DNA of 64,000 nt from a virus. Its lineage: Duplodnaviria; Caudoviricetes. The DNA lies in IMG/VR virus record IMGVR_UViG_3300028591_000106, positions 64,001 through 128,000 of that record; one strand, written 5' to 3'. Below, one piece after another: positions 51,139 to 60,873 of the stretch; position 1 is the stretch's first letter, and each line of letters begins with the position of its first letter. The notes beneath the pieces are model-generated. The model was not told the DNA's origin and did no database searches. It saw nothing but the letters and a program-made list of their open reading frames with translations. Position numbers and translations under genes: made by a program.

Positions 51139-52047
51139 ATGGATCAGAAAAAGTATGTTGACATCGAGCGTCTGAAGGACAAGTATGCAATGGCTTTTAA
51201 GGCTGGAGAGCACATCACTGTATCTGAAAAGATTGACGGTGCAAATGCATCTATCCGCTATGATGCGGAGACAGGTTCTCTTGCAGCTTTTTCTCGTCGT
51301 CAGCGACTGACCGAGGATAACAACCTGCAGGGATTCTATGCTTATGTTCTGACTCTTGATCCGGTAAAGTGGGCAGATGTAACTTCTAACGGTCGTTTCA
51401 TCGTTTTCGGCGAATGGCTTGTAAAGCACACTATCAAGTATCCGGATGACCTCATGCGTAAGTTCTATGTATTTGATGTTTGGGATACTGAGGCTGAGCA
51501 GTATGTTCCTTGGTTCCTGACCTATCAGATCGCACAGGCACTCGGACTGAAGACTGTACCGATTTTCTATGATGGTGAGTTTACTTCTTGGGAAGACCTG
51601 TACGCACTTGTCGGTCGTACCGAGATGCAGGCTGAGCCTACTGGCGAAGGTATCGTTATCAAGTCTCAGGATCGTCTTGATAACAAGTTCTCTGGTACTC
51701 CTGCATATGTAAAGATCGTTGCTAAGGAGTTCTCTGAGGTTCATCAGAGCAAGCCGCAGAAGGAGATTGATCCTGCTAAGATTGCTGCAAAGCAGGCGGC
51801 AGAAGCACAGGTCGAGACTATTGTCACTCAGCGTCGTGTTGAGAAGACTATTCAGAAGTTTGTTGAGGACAATCTTATTCCTGAAGATTGGGACGAGAAG
51901 AGCCTTGGTGCGATCGCTAAGATCCTTCCTCGTGCAGTTTATGATGACTGTGTAAAGGAAGAGCCTGAGACTGTTGCTCAGATTGAGAATTTCGGTAAGC
52001 TGTGCGCTCAGGTTGCAATGAAGCACGCTCGTGCGCTGGTAAAGTGA
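51139..52047 (+). CDS. ATP-dependent RNA ligase (Rnl2-like)
   Basis: EKIDGAN, FSR, VFGEW, FYVFDV, GEGIVIK, KIV..EF.E; promoter at 51073-51101; no TAG. Confidence 0.85.
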   Translation: MDQKKYVDIERLKDKYAMAFKAGEHITVSEKIDGANASIRYDAETGSLAAFSRRQRLTEDNNLQGFYAYVLTLDPVKWADVTSNGRFIVFGEWLVKHTIKYPDDLMRKFYVFDVWDTEAEQYVPWFLTYQIAQALGLKTVPIFYDGEFTSWEDLYALVGRTEMQAEPTGEGIVIKSQDRLDNKFSGTPAYVKIVAKEFSEVHQSKPQKEIDPAKIAAKQAAEAQVETIVTQRRVEKTIQKFVEDNLIPEDWDEKSLGAIAKILPRAVYDDCVKEEPETVAQIENFGKLCAQVAMKHARALVK

Positions 52048-57075: not shown

Positions 57076-57996
57076 ATGACGGAATTTTATATGATGATCG
57101 GAATTGCAGGTTCTGGTAAGTCTTTCATTGCAGAGAAGTATGCTCGTTTGCATAATGCTGTTATTGTATCTTCTGATGCAATTCGTGGTGAACTTTTTGG
57201 TGATGAGAATGACCAGACGCATAATGCCGAAGTTTTCGAGGAGGTTCATCGTCGTATTCTGAACGCTCTTAAGGCAGGACAGAACGCGATTTATGATGCA
57301 ACGAATCTTTCTGCAAAGCGCCGCAAGGCATTTTTAACGCAGATCCCTGCTGATGTGGAGAAGATCGCTGTGGTTATTGCTACGGATCTCGATGTTGCTC
57401 TGCGTCAGAATGCAAGCCGTGATCGTCAGGTCCCGCCTGATGTTATCAAGACGATGCTTCTGCGCCTTCAGATGCCTCGTATCAGCGAGGGTTGGAATGG
57501 TATTGACTACATTTCTAACCCTAACAACAAGAGTGATATTCTTTCTGTCATTAAGCCTTGCGTGGGCTTCGATCAGGATAACCCTCATCACTCTGCTGAG
57601 CTGTTTGACCATATGCAGCAGGCGGCGCAGTATGTCACGATTCATGCTCATGAGTATGGATTCAGTGGTATGGATGAAGCAGAAGTCTATATTGCTGCAC
57701 TTATCCATGACATCGGTAAGCCTATTTGTAAGACATATAAGCTGTGGAGTGGAAAGATCGACGATCATGCACATTACTACGGTCATGCCGATGTTGGTGC
57801 ATATATGGTCGCTTGCTTACTTCGCACTGTTCCTGCAGAGGATTACGGTCGTTGGATGACGATTCTTGAGCTGATTCAGTATCATATGGACTGCTATGCA
57901 AGTGACGACTGGCTTGAAAAAATTGATCGTGAAAAGGGTAAGGTTTTCCGTGATAAGATTGCTTTACTTCACGAGGGGGATAAGAATGGACACTGA
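57076..57996 (+). CDS. polynucleotide kinase (AAA_33) fused to an HD phosphohydrolase
   Basis: GIAGSGKS, SSDAIR, DATN...RR, R.R.VP; QDNPHH...H, LIHDIGK, HYYGH, YHM, HEGD; promoter at 57015-57043; no TAG. Confidence 0.85.
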   Translation: MTEFYMMIGIAGSGKSFIAEKYARLHNAVIVSSDAIRGELFGDENDQTHNAEVFEEVHRRILNALKAGQNAIYDATNLSAKRRKAFLTQIPADVEKIAVVIATDLDVALRQNASRDRQVPPDVIKTMLLRLQMPRISEGWNGIDYISNPNNKSDILSVIKPCVGFDQDNPHHSAELFDHMQQAAQYVTIHAHEYGFSGMDEAEVYIAALIHDIGKPICKTYKLWSGKIDDHAHYYGHADVGAYMVACLLRTVPAEDYGRWMTILELIQYHMDCYASDDWLEKIDREKGKVFRDKIALLHEGDKNGH

Positions 57997-58488: not shown

Positions 58489-58880
58489 CATAGGTATATA
58501 TCCTAGCTGGTGTAGCCGCAGCTCTTTTAGTCGCCGGTATTATTGTTGGCAAAGTCGGATCAAATAGGTGTAAGACTGCACTTATTGCTCTGGGCTTTGT
58601 TTTAGGTTTTGCAGGCGTGATTACAGGATTCTTCGGCTATGAAACTTACATCATGCAACCCGTTGAATATTCAATTACAAATTGCCGCGAGGTCGAGGGC
58701 GGATATAAGCTTACCCTTGAAGGATCAATGAAGGGTTTTACTGGCGGCACAGTTTTTGTTACTGTTGATGAAGCAAAATCACTTAATCTTTTGGAATGTG
58801 ATGAAGAAGGTAATTGGAAATGGGTTGGCGGTAAGATCAACGAATCAAGAAATTGGATTTCAGATCACCGCGACAATTAA
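58485..58880 (+). CDS. membrane protein
   Basis: AGGAGG RBS, TAG at codon 3, 2 TM, joins track ORF 58617. Confidence 0.6.
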
Positions 58881-58884
58881 AAAT

Positions 58885-58913
58885 TTGACTTTTTTAGAAA
58901 ATTATGATATAAT
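58885..58913 (+). promoter_or_regulatory. sigma70-type promoter for the ncRNA-tRNA-DUF2828 transcript
   Basis: TTGACT-17bp-TATAAT with an extended -10 TG. Confidence 0.8.
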
Positions 58914-58949
58914 TATTATATAAGGTTGAGAGAGATCTCACTTATATTT

Positions 58950-59183
58950 ACGGCAGGATAACAGCAATCTATAAAATACAAATTTTATAATAGAGTATTG
59001 CTAAAATTTTTCTAACCTATTGGGCGCCGAAGAGCCACGGTTAGCGTCGCAGACTACGCAAGTTTGCCGTGGGCTACCCACGAGAGGGGTGGCAGCAATG
59101 ATTGCTAAAAGTCATCGGACTAATCGCTACTGCGTGAAAGAGCGATGTAGGGAGACTAAACCTGAAACAAAATTTCCTGTCGT
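58950..59183 (+). ncRNA. putative structured RNA (ACAGCAA element 1 with a large multi-hairpin insert)
   Basis: closing stem ACGGCAGGA/TCCTGTCGT, followed by TAACAGCAA; internal hairpins GCAGACT/AGTTTGC, GCTACCC/GGGTGGC, ATCGCT/AGCGAT. Confidence 0.6.
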
Positions 59184-59190
59184 GTTATTT

Positions 59191-59264
59191 GCCCGCGTAG
59201 CAGAATTGGCATATGCGTCCGACTCAAAATCGGAAGTTTGTGGGTTCAACTCCCACCGTGGGCA
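59191..59264 (+). tRNA. tRNA-Leu(CAA) with a short variable loop
   Basis: acceptor GCCCGCG/CGTGGGC, D-arm with GG, anticodon stem TCCGA/TCGGA with loop CTCAAAA, T-arm GTGGG-TTCAACT-CCCAC, discriminator A; no encoded CCA. Confidence 0.88.
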
Positions 59265-59267
59265 CTC

Positions 59268-59323
59268 AGTCACCAACAGCTAAAACATATTATTAAAACT
59301 TCCAATTTTAAGAATAGGTGACT
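59268..59323 (+). ncRNA. ACAGC hairpin element 2
   Basis: stem AGTCACC/GGTGACT with AACAGCTAA directly 3' of the 5' strand. Confidence 0.6.
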
Positions 59324-59329
59324 AGTCTT

Positions 59330-59382
59330 AGATTCATACAGCAACTCATATTATTTTAATTGGGTAGAATTAAATTGAATCT
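59330..59382 (+). ncRNA. ACAGC hairpin element 3
   Basis: stem AGATTCA/TGAATCT with TACAGCAA directly 3' of the 5' strand. Confidence 0.6.
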
Positions 59383-59400
59383 TGTAAGGAGGAAAAAGGA

Positions 59401-60873
59401 ATGAATTTTACAGATGCTATGAGAGGCGCAGCTAACCACACTCTTACTGAGAATGGTGCGGCTGTCTATAAGACCACCGGCAATGCAGTCCTTGACCTAT
59501 TTGCCAGAATTGGTGGTATGCGTAATGCAGATCCTCGTGAAGTTGAAGCAGCTTGGCTTCGTGCCCGCGACTTCGATAAGGAGCTTGCAGATAATCTGAT
59601 TCTTTATACCCGTAACATTCGTGAGGGCGGTCTCGGTGAGCGTAAGCTCGGTCAGATTATGCTTAAGCTGCTTGCTTTGAAGGATCCTTCTAAGGTTGCA
59701 AGAAACCTCGACACCATTGTCGCGGCTGGTCGTTATGATGACCTGTTTGTACTTCAGGGTACTAAGGTCGAGACCAGTATGATGGAGTACCTGCGTGCGC
59801 AGTTCCGTCAGGACATTGTTGACATGGGGCAGGGCAAGCCTATTTCCCTTCTGGCAAAGTGGCTGCCTTCTTGCAACGCAAGTTCTAAGGAGACTCGTAA
59901 GCTGGCTCGTAAGATGTATGTCTATTTTGGCATCTCTGAGCGCACTTACCGTAAGACTCTTTCTGCTCTGAGAAGCCATCTCGATGTTGTCGAGAAGAAG
60001 ATGTCTGCTCAGGAGTTCGACGAAATTGACTATCAGAAGGTTCCTTCTGTAGCCATGACTCGTTACCGCTCTGCTTTCGGTCGTCATGACTTCGAGCGTT
60101 TTGGTGAATATCTTAATGCGGTAAAGAAGGGTGATGCAAAGATCAATGCATCTGTCACCTACCCTTACGAGCTTATTCGCCCTTACATCCTCGGCAGAAG
60201 GGGCTGGGGTTGCCGTACAGCAGCAGCTCTTGATCCTGTTCTTGAGGCACAGTGGAAGGCTCTTCCTAACTATGTCGAGGGCAACCATAATGTTATCGTC
60301 ATGTGCGATACTTCTGGTTCTATGACCTGCGACAACTGCAAGCCTCTTGCAACTTCTGTTTCTCTTGGCATTTACTTTGCGGAGAGAAATACTGGTGCTT
60401 ATCAGAACCTCGTTATGAGCTTCTCTCAGTCTCCTGTTTTCTATGAACTGAATCCTCATGATTCTGTTCTTAACAGAACAAATGAGATCCTTCGTCACGA
60501 TCAACTGAACACCAACCTCGACGCAGCTCTTGATGCGGTATACCGTCTTGCAGTTAAGAGTGGAGACGCTCCTTCTGCACTCGTCATCATCTCTGATGGT
60601 GAGATTGACAGCTACCGTTACCAGAATGCTGCTGACATCGTTGAGAAGTGGCAGGCGATTTATGCAGGAAGCGGTATGGTCGCTCCTAAGCTTATCATGT
60701 GGAATGTTGAGTCTCGTGGCTCTCGTTACATTGGTAAGAAGGAGAACCCCGGCATTGCATACATCTCTGGTTCTTCTGCTTCTAGCTTCAAGGAGCTGGC
60801 AACGCTGATCTCTATGGATGCAGTTACCGCAATGACTCGTATCCTGACCAAGCCTCAGTTCCAGTGGAAGTAA
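59401..60873 (+). CDS. DUF2828-family Ro60/TROVE-like protein with a C-terminal vWA domain, 490 aa
   Basis: LTENGA...TTG...LDLF, R.IR.GGLGER, GRYDDL, ISLLAKWLPS, YRK.LS.LR, DTSGSM MIDAS, IISDGE.D, MWNV; no TAG. Confidence 0.82.
   Translation: MNFTDAMRGAANHTLTENGAAVYKTTGNAVLDLFARIGGMRNADPREVEAAWLRARDFDKELADNLILYTRNIREGGLGERKLGQIMLKLLALKDPSKVARNLDTIVAAGRYDDLFVLQGTKVETSMMEYLRAQFRQDIVDMGQGKPISLLAKWLPSCNASSKETRKLARKMYVYFGISERTYRKTLSALRSHLDVVEKKMSAQEFDEIDYQKVPSVAMTRYRSAFGRHDFERFGEYLNAVKKGDAKINASVTYPYELIRPYILGRRGWGCRTAAALDPVLEAQWKALPNYVEGNHNVIVMCDTSGSMTCDNCKPLATSVSLGIYFAERNTGAYQNLVMSFSQSPVFYELNPHDSVLNRTNEILRHDQLNTNLDAALDAVYRLAVKSGDAPSALVIISDGEIDSYRYQNAADIVEKWQAIYAGSGMVAPKLIMWNVESRGSRYIGKKENPGIAYISGSSASSFKELATLISMDAVTAMTRILTKPQFQWK

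What the first reader, a model, noticed from the sequence alone, without database searches (positions are those of the whole stretch)
58959..59174. ~215-nt multi-hairpin RNA nested in the loop of ACAGCAA element 1
Seen in sequence: elements 2 and 3 have AT-rich loops of about 40 nt, but element 1 encloses a much longer and partly GC-rich insert. It contains many predicted helices: AGCAAT/ATTGCT around TATAAAAT/ATTTTATA, CCACGG/CCGTGG, GCAGACT/AGTTTGC, GCTACCC/GGGTGGC, AGCAA/TTGCT and ATCGCT/AGCGAT. GACTA occurs three times. I could not match it to a riboswitch, ribozyme or tmRNA from memory. Inference: it is a separate functional RNA domain carried as cargo on the protein-binding stem, as in bacterial Y RNAs that combine a Ro-binding stem with a variable effector domain.
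Basis: partly seen in the sequence, partly recalled or inferred. Interest (0 to 1): 0.7.

Follow-up and report, generated by a model that had tools for sequence, protein, structure and literature searches.

The report
Long Y-RNA-like phage RNA, Ro60-linked
A rumen phage makes a conserved, folded RNA of about 250 bases, clamped by a short stem, just upstream of a tRNA and a Ro60-shaped protein gene; it is most likely an unusually large, undescribed type of Y-RNA-like partner of that protein, but what its inner domain does is unknown.

Summary
Window 58949-59184 folds into a 10-bp closing stem around a multi-hairpin insert of 216 nt (z = -4.2). Several show compensatory changes in six related phages. 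The three GACTA copies are not above chance.

The RNA appears functional. Its last 82 nt (59093-59174) are 94-99% identical in four of the five phage types whose neighbouring gene is only ~76% identical (87-88% in the fifth). Short contigs confined to 58934-59195 occur in metatranscriptomes from three studies. ORF 59020-59283 is not conserved.

Context supports a Y-RNA-like role:
- A consensus promoter lies upstream and tRNA-Leu(CAA) starts 6 nt downstream.
- The next gene (DUF2828+vWA) models as a Ro60 ring (Foldseek E ~5e-9).
- The stem+CAGCAA "handle" is 11-fold enriched on the sense strand upstream of 166 such genes.

It is not a member of the known Y RNA families. It has no Rfam match and no GNCGAA motif in the stem, it carries no tRNA-like domain, and it is about twice their size. 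The cargo is clade-specific and its function is unknown. Protein binding is inferred, not shown.

Earlier scan notes cover the same handle family in this genome only.

The parts
58885..58913 (+). sigma-70 type promoter TTGACT-17-TATAAT with TG extension
   Evidence: One search gives 11 of 12 matches. The same promoter block is conserved upstream in many related loci. Many RNA and DNA contigs from other places match only this block.
58927..58940 (+). 5' leader hairpin UGAGA-GAGA-UCUCA
   Evidence: Read directly from the sequence. L084/L086 keep a hairpin here with different letters, GUGAG...CUCAC. The longest RNA-library contig starts at 58934.
58949..58958 (+). 5' strand of the closing ('handle') stem, UACGGCAGGA
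   Evidence: It is invariant in the close clade. Complementarity is kept despite sequence changes in L173 (ACGACAGG/CCUGUCGU), L084 (ACGGCAGAGA/UCUCUGUCGU) and L002-L006 (AAGACGCA/UGCGUCUU).
58961..58967 (+). ACAGCAA handle motif
   Evidence: The stem followed by C[AT]GC[AT]A occurs 305 times on the sense strand and 27 times on the antisense strand in the 800 nt upstream of 166 DUF2828 genes.
58963..59002 (+). hairpin A, AT-rich (AGCAAU/AUUGCU around UAUAAAAU/AUUUUAUA)
   Evidence: The stem is mostly invariant and the loop is variable, 62-79% identical.
59012..59044 (+). hairpin B module. The outer helix is CUAACC/GGUUAG. The inner helix is 3 bp and caps the loop GCCGAAGA
   Evidence: The inner stem covaries: GGC/GCC, AGU/ACU, and ACC/GGU in L084. 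L172 replaces the loop with a UUCG loop.
59049..59067 (+). variable hairpin C (GCAGACU/AGUUUGC)
   Evidence: The stem is kept with other letters in L087, L170 and L172, and as GUAAGU/ACUUAC in L082. It is deleted in L168.
59074..59092 (+). variable hairpin D (CUACCC/GGGUGG, GAGA-type loop)
   Evidence: Five of its six pairs have changes on both sides. It is deleted in L172.
59093..59174 (+). conserved 82-nt 3' domain. It comprises hairpin E (59094-59106), F (59110-59121), G (59123-59146) and H (59148-59164), then an A-rich linker
   Evidence: It is 94-99% identical to L170, L082 and L172 and 87-88% identical to L168/L169. The adjacent gene is only 75-77% identical in these phages, and 57-60% at third codon positions. 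Compensatory changes occur in E and G. Model R1 finds it only in this clade.
59175..59184 (+). 3' strand of the closing stem, UCCUGUCGUG
59185..59190 (+). 6-nt spacer UUAUUU. It would become the 3' tail of the RNA after RNase P cleavage (inferred)
   Evidence: Read from the sequence. RNase P cleavage at the tRNA 5' end is established knowledge and was not tested here.
59191..59265 (+). tRNA-Leu(CAA), 75 nt, short variable loop
   Evidence: ARAGORN and Rfam tRNA at 65.1 bits. It is conserved at this position in relatives.
59268..59382 (+). handle elements 2 (59268-59323) and 3 (59330-59382), with cargoes of 42 and 39 nt
59401..60873 (+). DUF2828 + DUF7788/vWA protein with a Ro60-like fold
   Evidence: Pfam. 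The AlphaFold2 model has pLDDT 90.3. The top Foldseek hits are Ro60 structures 2i91, 1yvp, 9l5y and 2nvo over about 500 or more aligned columns, E 5e-9 to 3e-7.
57076..57996 (+). context: polynucleotide-kinase-like AAA_33 + HD phosphohydrolase fusion
51139..52047 (+). context: RNA ligase (PF09414)

Best explanation
It is a real, expressed, non-coding RNA gene. The consensus promoter at 58885-58913 starts a transcript that runs through a small 5' hairpin, the clamped 236-nt element, tRNA-Leu(CAA) and two small handle elements, and then into the mRNA of a Ro60-shaped protein (DUF2828+vWA).

Inferred steps:
- RNase P cutting at the 5' end of the tRNA (59190/59191) releases the upstream part as an RNA of about 250-270 nt with a UUAUUU tail.
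- The closing stem plus the ACAGCAA motif (the 'handle') is the docking site for the Ro60-like ring, as the terminal stem of a Y RNA is for Ro60.
- The inner part has two conserved blocks, 59012-59044 and the 82-nt domain 59093-59174, separated by two freely changing capped hairpins. It is a folded module that gives the particle a second specificity, such as tethering another protein or RNA. This would parallel the way Y RNA loops tether PNPase.

The nearby RNA ligase and kinase-HD genes suggest a role in RNA repair or quality control during infection.

Shown here: structure, selection, presence in RNA libraries, genomic linkage and the protein fold. Inferred: processing, protein binding and the effector role.
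For: Structure:
- z = -4.15.
- 97% of pair cells are paired against 31-39% when slid, with 9 compensatory pairs.
- Hairpin C is kept with different letters.
- Strain variants in RNA contigs keep pairing: 59054 C>U against G, and 59119 A>G against U.

Selection:
- The 82-nt domain is 94-99% identical in L170, L082 and L172 (87-88% in L168/L169), where the adjacent gene is about 76% identical and 57-60% at third codon positions.
- In L168 a substitution that introduces a stop codon in the only open frame restores an A-U pair.

Expression:
- Contigs of 167-234 nt lie wholly within 58934-59195 in four RNA libraries from three studies.
- None of them continues through the tRNA.

Linkage:
- The Ro60 fold of the downstream protein.
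- The handle occurs 305 times on the sense strand against 27 on the antisense strand upstream of 166 homologous genes.
- The arrangement handle element, tRNA-Leu, two handle elements, gene is kept down to 57-67% protein identity.

Precedent and context:
- D. radiodurans Yrn2 is made as a polycistronic precursor with a tRNA (PMC4201824).
- Phage phiLo Ro60 binds two Y-like RNAs encoded upstream of its gene (PMC12135203).
- An RNA ligase and a Pnk-HD fusion lie within 8 kb.
Against: - No binding data exist. The protein is not a Pfam TROVE match and is only 12-16% identical to solved Ro60 structures.
- The canonical Ro60 site GNCGAAN0-1G is absent from the terminal stem. It occurs once, in a hairpin loop, and is not enriched in the family: 26 observed against 30 +/- 5.6 in shuffles.
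- The cargo is clade-specific. It is replaced by an unrelated 135-nt cargo in L173, shares only its ends with the 266-nt cargo of L084, and is 57-68 nt in L002-L006. Whatever it does is therefore not essential to the system.
- The RNA evidence comes from assembled contigs of libraries chosen because they hold this stretch. It gives no strand and no exact ends, and DNA carry-over cannot be excluded.
- Several helices (closing stem, CUAACC/GGUUAG, F, H) are invariant in the close clade, so covariation says nothing about them there.
Confidence: 0.55

Rival explanations
1. It is a cis-acting leader. Under this reading the folded RNA is a processing or stability scaffold for the tRNA-Leu precursor and the downstream mRNA. 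It would protect the 5' end, guide RNase P or RNase E, or serve as an operator through which the protein regulates its own operon. It would have no function of its own once cut off.
For: It lies between the only promoter and the tRNA and gene. Element 3 ends 5 nt before the Shine-Dalgarno sequence, which fits an operator role for the small handles. The leader length varies freely between relatives, from 57 to 266 nt.
Against: An 82-nt block with near-invariant sequence is more than a stability hairpin needs. RNA-library contigs cover the leader but not the tRNA or the following spacer, and in run X9 its contig has a higher figure than the flanking gene contigs, 27.8 against 5-8. This suggests the leader accumulates. 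In L082 and L168 about 110 nt are inserted between it and the tRNA without disturbing it.
Confidence: 0.15
2. It is a Ro-independent decoy or sponge. Under this reading the hairpins imitate host RNA targets of defence nucleases, or they soak up a host RNA-binding protein. The clamp would only stabilise the RNA.
For: The loop of hairpin D reads ACGAGAG. The loop of hairpin C in L082 contains UACGAGAGGAC, which is identical to the sarcin-ricin loop core as I recall it from memory. RNA-repair genes lie nearby.
Against: The look-alike loops sit in the two least conserved hairpins and change to GUGA, GAUA or UUCG-type caps in homologues. This fits ordinary tetraloop caps better than mimicry. The conserved 82-nt domain matches no tRNA, rRNA or other Rfam model at E up to 10. 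A 20-mer from it has no counterpart in 185,579 bacterial and archaeal genomes beyond one chance-level hit.
Confidence: 0.1
3. It is a neutral remnant of an insertion, for example a decayed mobile element, into an ancestral small handle hairpin.
For: The cargo size differs widely between clades. The region tolerates insertions: the closest relative carries an HNH endonuclease gene with a duplicated tRNA 5' half next to it.
Against: There is strong purifying selection on two blocks, compensatory changes, and indels that remove exactly whole hairpins.
Confidence: 0.05
4. It encodes a small protein, either ORF 59020-59283 (87 aa, TTG start) or the frame starting at ATG 59099.
For: The frame is open in the window and in L087. 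The segment from ATG 59099 to about 59184 is open in five of the six sequence types.
Against: - The 87-aa frame is broken by a frameshift in L170 and by stop codons in L082, L172 and L168.
- It runs through the tRNA gene.
- The L168 stop codon coincides with a compensatory base-pair change.
- The C-terminus is replaced wherever DNA is inserted before the tRNA.
- The ATG lies inside hairpin E, and no Pfam match was found.
Confidence: 0.03

Closest known systems
Bacterial and phage Y RNAs bound by Ro60/Rsr: S. Typhimurium and M. smegmatis YrlA/YrlB, D. radiodurans Yrn1/Yrn2 (PMC4201824)
   Same: - It is a non-coding RNA encoded right next to, and on the same strand as, a Ro60-shaped protein gene.
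- Its 5' and 3' ends pair into a long stem around a variable inner module.
- Several such RNAs occur per locus.
- Yrn2 is likewise co-transcribed with a tRNA.
   Different: - It has no GNCGAAN0-1G motif in the stem, and a different conserved motif (ACAGCAA) follows the 5' strand.
- The cargo has no T/D-arm tRNA-like domain.
- It is 236-270 nt against 80-130 nt.
- It has no Rfam match.
- The partner protein belongs to DUF2828, not Pfam TROVE.
Thermus phage phiLo Ro60 with Yrl1/Yrl2 (PMC12135203; PDB 9KOP, 9L5Y)
   Same: A phage-encoded Ro60-type ring with Y-like RNAs encoded directly upstream of its gene. The phiLo structure is among the top fold matches of the window's protein.
   Different: - The phiLo RNAs were picked by their CGAA motif and are small stem-bulge-stem RNAs.
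- Here the handle motif differs and the cargo is a large multi-hairpin fold.
- Binding was shown for phiLo and not for this RNA.
Small handle RNAs of the same phage family (elements 2 and 3 of this window; earlier notes e1-5779856 and e1-5779857)
   Same: They share the same stem + CAGC(A/T)A handle, promoter unit and gene linkage.
   Different: - Their cargo is typically 25-85 nt. Here it is 216 nt.
- This cargo has its own conserved 82-nt domain.
- This element lies upstream of the tRNA and so can be released as a separate molecule.
RNase P-dependent 3'-end formation upstream of a tRNA or tRNA-like element (MALAT1/mascRNA; polycistronic tRNA precursors). This is a 'works like' comparison only
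   Same: The mature 3' end of an upstream non-coding RNA would be made by RNase P cleavage at the 5' end of the adjacent tRNA, 6 nt after the closing stem.
   Different: Cleavage was not tested here. The comparison rests on established knowledge of RNase P and on contig ends at 59185-59195.
Large ornate phage-associated RNAs found near tRNA genes (ROOL, GOLLD)
   Same: A structured non-coding RNA in a phage from the rumen or gut, placed next to a tRNA gene.
   Different: It does not match either Rfam model, even at E up to 10. It is far smaller. It has a clamp and Ro60-like gene linkage that those RNAs lack.

Membership tests
Y RNA (YrlA/Yrn-type, Ro60-bound) | Encoded within a few kb of a Ro60 orthologue | tested here: met
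   The gene 59401-60873 starts 217 nt after the closing stem, on the same strand. It is Ro60-like by fold: Foldseek E 5e-9, TM 0.5-0.6 over about 500 or more columns. By sequence it is DUF2828, not TROVE.
Y RNA (YrlA/Yrn-type, Ro60-bound) | Long stem formed by pairing of the 5' and 3' ends, enclosing a large loop or module | tested here: met
   A 10-bp stem, 58949-58958 with 59175-59184. Complementarity is kept with other letters in L173, L084 and L002-L006.
Y RNA (YrlA/Yrn-type, Ro60-bound) | Ro60-binding motif GNCGAAN0-1G in the 5' strand of that stem (PMC4201824) | tested here: not met
   The stem and its flanks lack the motif. The only copy (GCCGAAG, 59026-59032) is in the loop of hairpin B and is lost in L172. 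The motif is not enriched upstream of 133 distinct DUF2828 genes: 26 against 30 +/- 5.6.
Y RNA (YrlA/Yrn-type, Ro60-bound) | Size 80-130 nt (PMC4201824) | tested here: not met
   236 nt from stem to stem. About 270 nt from the likely transcription start to the tRNA.
YrlA | tRNA-like domain with T and D arms inside the RNA | tested here: not met
   ARAGORN and the Rfam tRNA model find only the separate tRNA at 59191-59265 and nothing inside 58959-59174.
Y RNA (any Rfam family) | Match to a curated covariance model | tested here: not met
   No family other than tRNA reaches its gathering score in the window. Nothing relevant appears in 58800-59450 at E up to 10.
Y RNA (functional definition) | Physically bound by the Ro60 protein | not testable with these tools
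   This needs EMSA or immunoprecipitation. Only genomic linkage is available.
DUF2828-linked 'handle' RNAs (provisional family from this scan) | Closing stem of 7 bp or more, followed within 0-3 nt by C[AT]GC[AT]A, on the sense strand within 800 nt upstream of a DUF2828 gene | tested here: met
   The window's element 1 meets this definition. The definition gives 305 sense hits against 27 antisense hits in 166 loci.
T-box leader / riboswitch / self-cleaving ribozyme | Match to the Rfam model, with an expression platform (terminator or sequestered SD) in front of a regulated gene | tested here: not met
   There is no Rfam hit and no terminator between the RNA and the tRNA. The GGGUGG resemblance to the T-box core is not conserved in homologues.

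The most novel reading that the evidence does not exclude
The 82-nt conserved domain is an adaptor that recruits a second factor to the Ro60-like ring. Candidates are the phage's own kinase-HD and RNA ligase, or host PNPase. This would make a phage-encoded, RYPER-like RNA repair or quality-control particle that counters host tRNA- or rRNA-cleaving defences. The RNA subunit would be a new, long class of Y RNA, recognised through an ACAGCAA handle and matured by RNase P from a tRNA-containing precursor.
Probability: 0.2. Interest if true: 0.8.

Novelty: new variant of a known kind. Interest (0 to 1): 0.6.

Why it matters
Ro60 and its Y RNAs are studied in animals and a few bacteria. What the variable part of a Y RNA recruits is known in only a few cases, notably PNPase.

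DUF2828 proteins number in the thousands in gut and rumen phage metagenomes: 7,936 hits among 8,000 scored candidates. No paper in the searchable library discusses their function.

If they are Ro60 rings with their own RNA partners, this locus offers a compact and testable example. It has one promoter, one long clamped RNA with a sharply conserved 82-nt domain, a tRNA, two mini-RNAs and the protein, with RNA repair enzymes nearby. It could show how phages use Ro-type particles and what a large Y-RNA module does.

Tried and rejected
- Rfam at gathering scores on the whole window, and at E up to 10 on 58800-59450, gave only the tRNA. Rfam on 20 related loci also gave only tRNAs.
- BLASTN of the region against 50,697 phage records found no match.
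- A single-protein scan of viral contigs found nothing. Alignment-based scans gave 160 loci, none above 67% protein identity and none with this cargo.
- An exact 25-mer pattern in viral contigs gave 0 hits.
- A degenerate pattern for hairpin H gave 2 hits, both in GC-rich coding DNA and judged to be chance.
- A 20-mer pattern in 185,579 prokaryote genomes gave one 28-nt local match in an Agathobacter MAG contig with no other similarity. My estimate of chance matches is about 4, so it is not used as host evidence.
- nhmmer with the 7-sequence profile recovered only the ends of the L084 cargo.
- Covariance model R1 of the 82-nt domain found nothing significant outside the clade. L084 scored 16.8 bits, E = 2.2.
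- The canonical Ro60 motif is not enriched in the family.
- GACTA occurring three times is not above chance.
- A T-box-like GGGUGG, a sarcin-ricin-like ACGAGAGG and a 16S h45-like GUAGGG...CCUG were considered by eye. They are not conserved or too short to count.
- Looking for tRNA-like or anticodon-arm shapes in hairpins F-H found no 7-nt loop with U33.
- The coding reading was rejected.
- Parts of the stretch without RNA contigs (58688-58875, the tRNA, 59196-59278) are not interpreted. Contigs cannot show absence.
- Three review or analysis papers could not be fetched.

Full report
WHAT IS THERE

The window is bases 64001-128000 of a 146.6-kb phage record. The genome has 36.9% GC. It carries a tRNA array that includes a CUA-anticodon tRNA. 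This fits the TAG recoding mentioned in earlier notes.

At 58885-58913 there is a near-perfect sigma-70 promoter, TTGACT-17-TATAAT. The same block recurs upstream of the homologous gene in many related phages. Downstream, in order, lie:
- a small 5' hairpin (58927-58940);
- a 10-bp closing stem, UACGGCAGGA 58949-58958 with UCCUGUCGUG 59175-59184, that encloses 216 nt;
- a 6-nt spacer;
- tRNA-Leu(CAA) at 59191-59265;
- two small stem-loops with the same stem+ACAGC(A/T)A layout, enclosing 42 and 39 nt;
- a Shine-Dalgarno sequence and a 490-aa gene (59401-60873).

The finding's coordinates (58959-59174) are exactly the stretch between the two strands of the closing stem.

IS THE FOLD REAL?

The 236-nt element folds 4.15 standard deviations better than dinucleotide shuffles. 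I found the same RNA in six further sequence types from sheep, goat and cattle gut assemblies. They are 76-91% identical to it.

On their alignment (A3) the consensus fold has 52 pairs:
- 97.2% of cells are standard pairs, against 31-39% when partners are slid by 1-3 columns.
- Nine pairs change on both sides. These lie in hairpin B's inner stem, hairpin D, hairpin E and hairpin G.

Other points support the fold:
- Hairpin C was mis-gapped by the aligner. It is also kept with different letters, for example GUAAGU/ACUUAC in L082.
- Indels remove whole hairpins: D in L172 and C in L168.
- Caps are swapped, GCCGAAGA to UUCG in L172.

Some limits apply:
- The closing stem, CUAACC/GGUUAG, F and H never vary within this clade, so they are untested there.
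- The closing stem does keep complementarity with other letters in more distant relatives.
It overlaps the CUAACC/GGUUAG pairing, and one strand is deleted in two homologues. The two may be alternative folds.
- GACTA occurring three times is not above chance and is not conserved.

IS IT FUNCTIONAL AND NON-CODING?

The last 82 nt before the 3' strand of the stem (59093-59174) are strongly conserved. They are 94-99% identical between the window and L170, L082 and L172, and 87-88% identical to L168/L169. In these phages the adjacent protein gene is only 75-77% identical, and 57-60% at third codon positions. The block 59012-59044 is also conserved. The loop of hairpin A and hairpins C and D drift. 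This is purifying selection on sequence, beyond what pairing alone needs.

The 87-codon ORF 59020-59283 does not behave as a gene:
- It is frameshifted in L170.
- It is interrupted by stop codons in L082, L172 and L168.
- It runs through the tRNA gene.
- In L168 it is stopped by the very substitution that restores an A-U pair in hairpin G.

IS IT EXPRESSED?

Six RNA libraries hold the stretch. I laid four of them, from three studies. Each has a short contig confined to the element:
- 58934-59155: a 234-nt contig with a depth figure of 27.8, against 5-8 for the flanking gene contigs of the same run.
- 59029-59195: a 167-nt contig identical to the window.
- 58962-59154.
- 58962-59185.

None continues through the tRNA. 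A separate contig starts at 59279 and runs into the gene. The variant letters in two of the contigs keep pairing (59054 C>U opposite G, and 59119 A>G opposite U).

These are assembled contigs from libraries selected because they hold the stretch. They show presence in RNA preparations and suggest a discrete species. They do not give strand, exact ends or abundance.

THE NEIGHBOUR GENE

Pfam calls the protein DUF2828 + DUF7788 with weak vWA matches, and finds no TROVE domain. An AlphaFold2 model built from 28 homologues has pLDDT 90.3.

Its best Foldseek matches in the PDB are full-length Ro60 structures: Xenopus 1yvp/2i91, human Ro60, Thermus phage phiLo 9KOP/9L5Y and Deinococcus Rsr 2nvo. E-values run from 5e-9 to 3e-7, with TM about 0.5-0.6 over about 500 or more columns. 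Isolated vWA domains follow far behind. The protein is therefore a divergent Ro60-type ring.

An RNA ligase (51139-52047) and a kinase+HD fusion (57076-57996) lie within 8 kb. This matches the RNA-repair company that ROT/TROVE proteins keep in jumbo phages (PMC7824862).

LINKAGE OF THE HANDLE TO THE GENE

A simple finder looked for a stem of at least 7 bp, followed within 0-3 nt by C[AT]GC[AT]A, with the partner strand within 600 nt. It recovers the three elements of the window. It finds 305 instances on the sense strand and 27 on the antisense strand in the 800 nt upstream of 166 DUF2828 genes.

Most cargoes are 25-85 nt. Some of the long ones in that list are cross-pairings between neighbouring units.

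The order handle element, tRNA-Leu, two handle elements, gene is kept down to 57-67% protein identity. In those relatives the element before the tRNA has a cargo of only 57-68 nt.

Within the closer clade the cargo at this position varies:
- 135 nt and unrelated in L173;
- 183-225 nt in the window's group;
- 266 nt in L084, which shares only the first hairpins (including a GCCGAAGA-capped hairpin with a covarying stem) and the last hairpin plus A-rich linker.

A covariance model of the 82-nt domain finds nothing significant outside the clade. The cargo is thus a lineage-specific, fast-turning-over module on a conserved clamp, and it is well conserved once acquired.

MECHANISM

Best reading (0.55): this is a Y-RNA-like partner of the Ro60-like protein. 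The clamp would be the docking site and the inner fold a second-specificity module. RNase P would release the RNA from the tRNA-containing precursor.

Two precedents exist. D. radiodurans Yrn2 is made with a tRNA as a polycistronic precursor (PMC4201824). PhiLo Ro60 binds two Y-like RNAs encoded upstream of its gene and assembles with host PNPase (PMC12135203).

Binding, processing and the effector are inferences. The rivals are a purely cis-acting leader or operator (0.15), a Ro-independent decoy or sponge (0.10), a neutral insertion remnant (0.05) and a small protein (0.03).

COMPARISON WITH KNOWN FAMILIES

The RNA works like a Y RNA but fails the membership tests of the described families:
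- It has no GNCGAAN0-1G in the stem. That motif occurs once, in a hairpin loop, is lost in L172, and is not enriched in the family.
- It has no T/D-arm domain.
- It is about twice the size range of 80-130 nt.
- It matches no Rfam model.

The searchable literature holds nothing on DUF2828 function. I therefore rate it a new variant of a known kind.

Earlier notes of this scan on the same genome describe the small handle RNAs and a tRNA-shaped one. The scan has not seen this cargo in any other genome.

Noticed in passing
L087:2192-2790 (closest relative; protein 98% identical): About 566 nt are inserted between the long RNA and the tRNA. The insert carries a 168-aa HNH endonuclease gene that is readable only with TAG=Q. 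It is preceded by a duplicate of the first ~40 nt of the tRNA. It looks like a homing-endonuclease insertion at the tRNA gene.
   Followed up: partly
window 59191-59265; L002:2744-2826, L004:2747-2826: The tRNA with anticodon CAA (Leu) is 75 nt long with a 5-nt variable loop. It therefore lacks the long variable arm of bacterial tRNA-Leu. Relatives at ~66% protein identity have 80-86-nt versions at the same position. Its identity and charging are open.
   Followed up: no
L082:2655-2767 and L168:1165-1284: Two relatives carry an extra, mutually similar segment of ~110-120 nt between the 3' strand of the clamp and the tRNA. It is GC-richer and looks structured. It may be another RNA element.
   Followed up: no
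L007:2771-2901: The handle element in a phage at 57% protein identity has a 109-nt cargo with two anti-Shine-Dalgarno-like stretches, AUCACCUCCUU and UACCUCC. The first equals the 3' end of 16S rRNA as I recall it. It could mimic that end or pair with the SD of the downstream gene.
   Followed up: no
L082:2535-2550 (hairpin C loop): The loop contains UACGAGAGGAC, which is identical to the sarcin-ricin loop core of 23S rRNA as recalled from memory. The window's hairpin D loop has ACGAGAGG. This is not conserved across homologues, so it is probably an ordinary GAGA cap.
   Followed up: partly
genome 144480-146170 (beyond the window's end): A tRNA array of ten genes that includes a CUA-anticodon tRNA (ARAGORN calls it Pyl). 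This is consistent with TAG being read as an amino acid in this phage.
   Followed up: no
window 58876-58922: Many RNA- and DNA-library contigs match only the promoter block and continue into unrelated sequence on both sides. The same promoter sequence is therefore reused at many places in this phage group.
   Followed up: no
L084:2326-2457: L084, L085 and L086 carry two clamped elements in tandem before the tRNA, with cargoes of 116 nt and 266 nt. The window has only one.
   Followed up: partly
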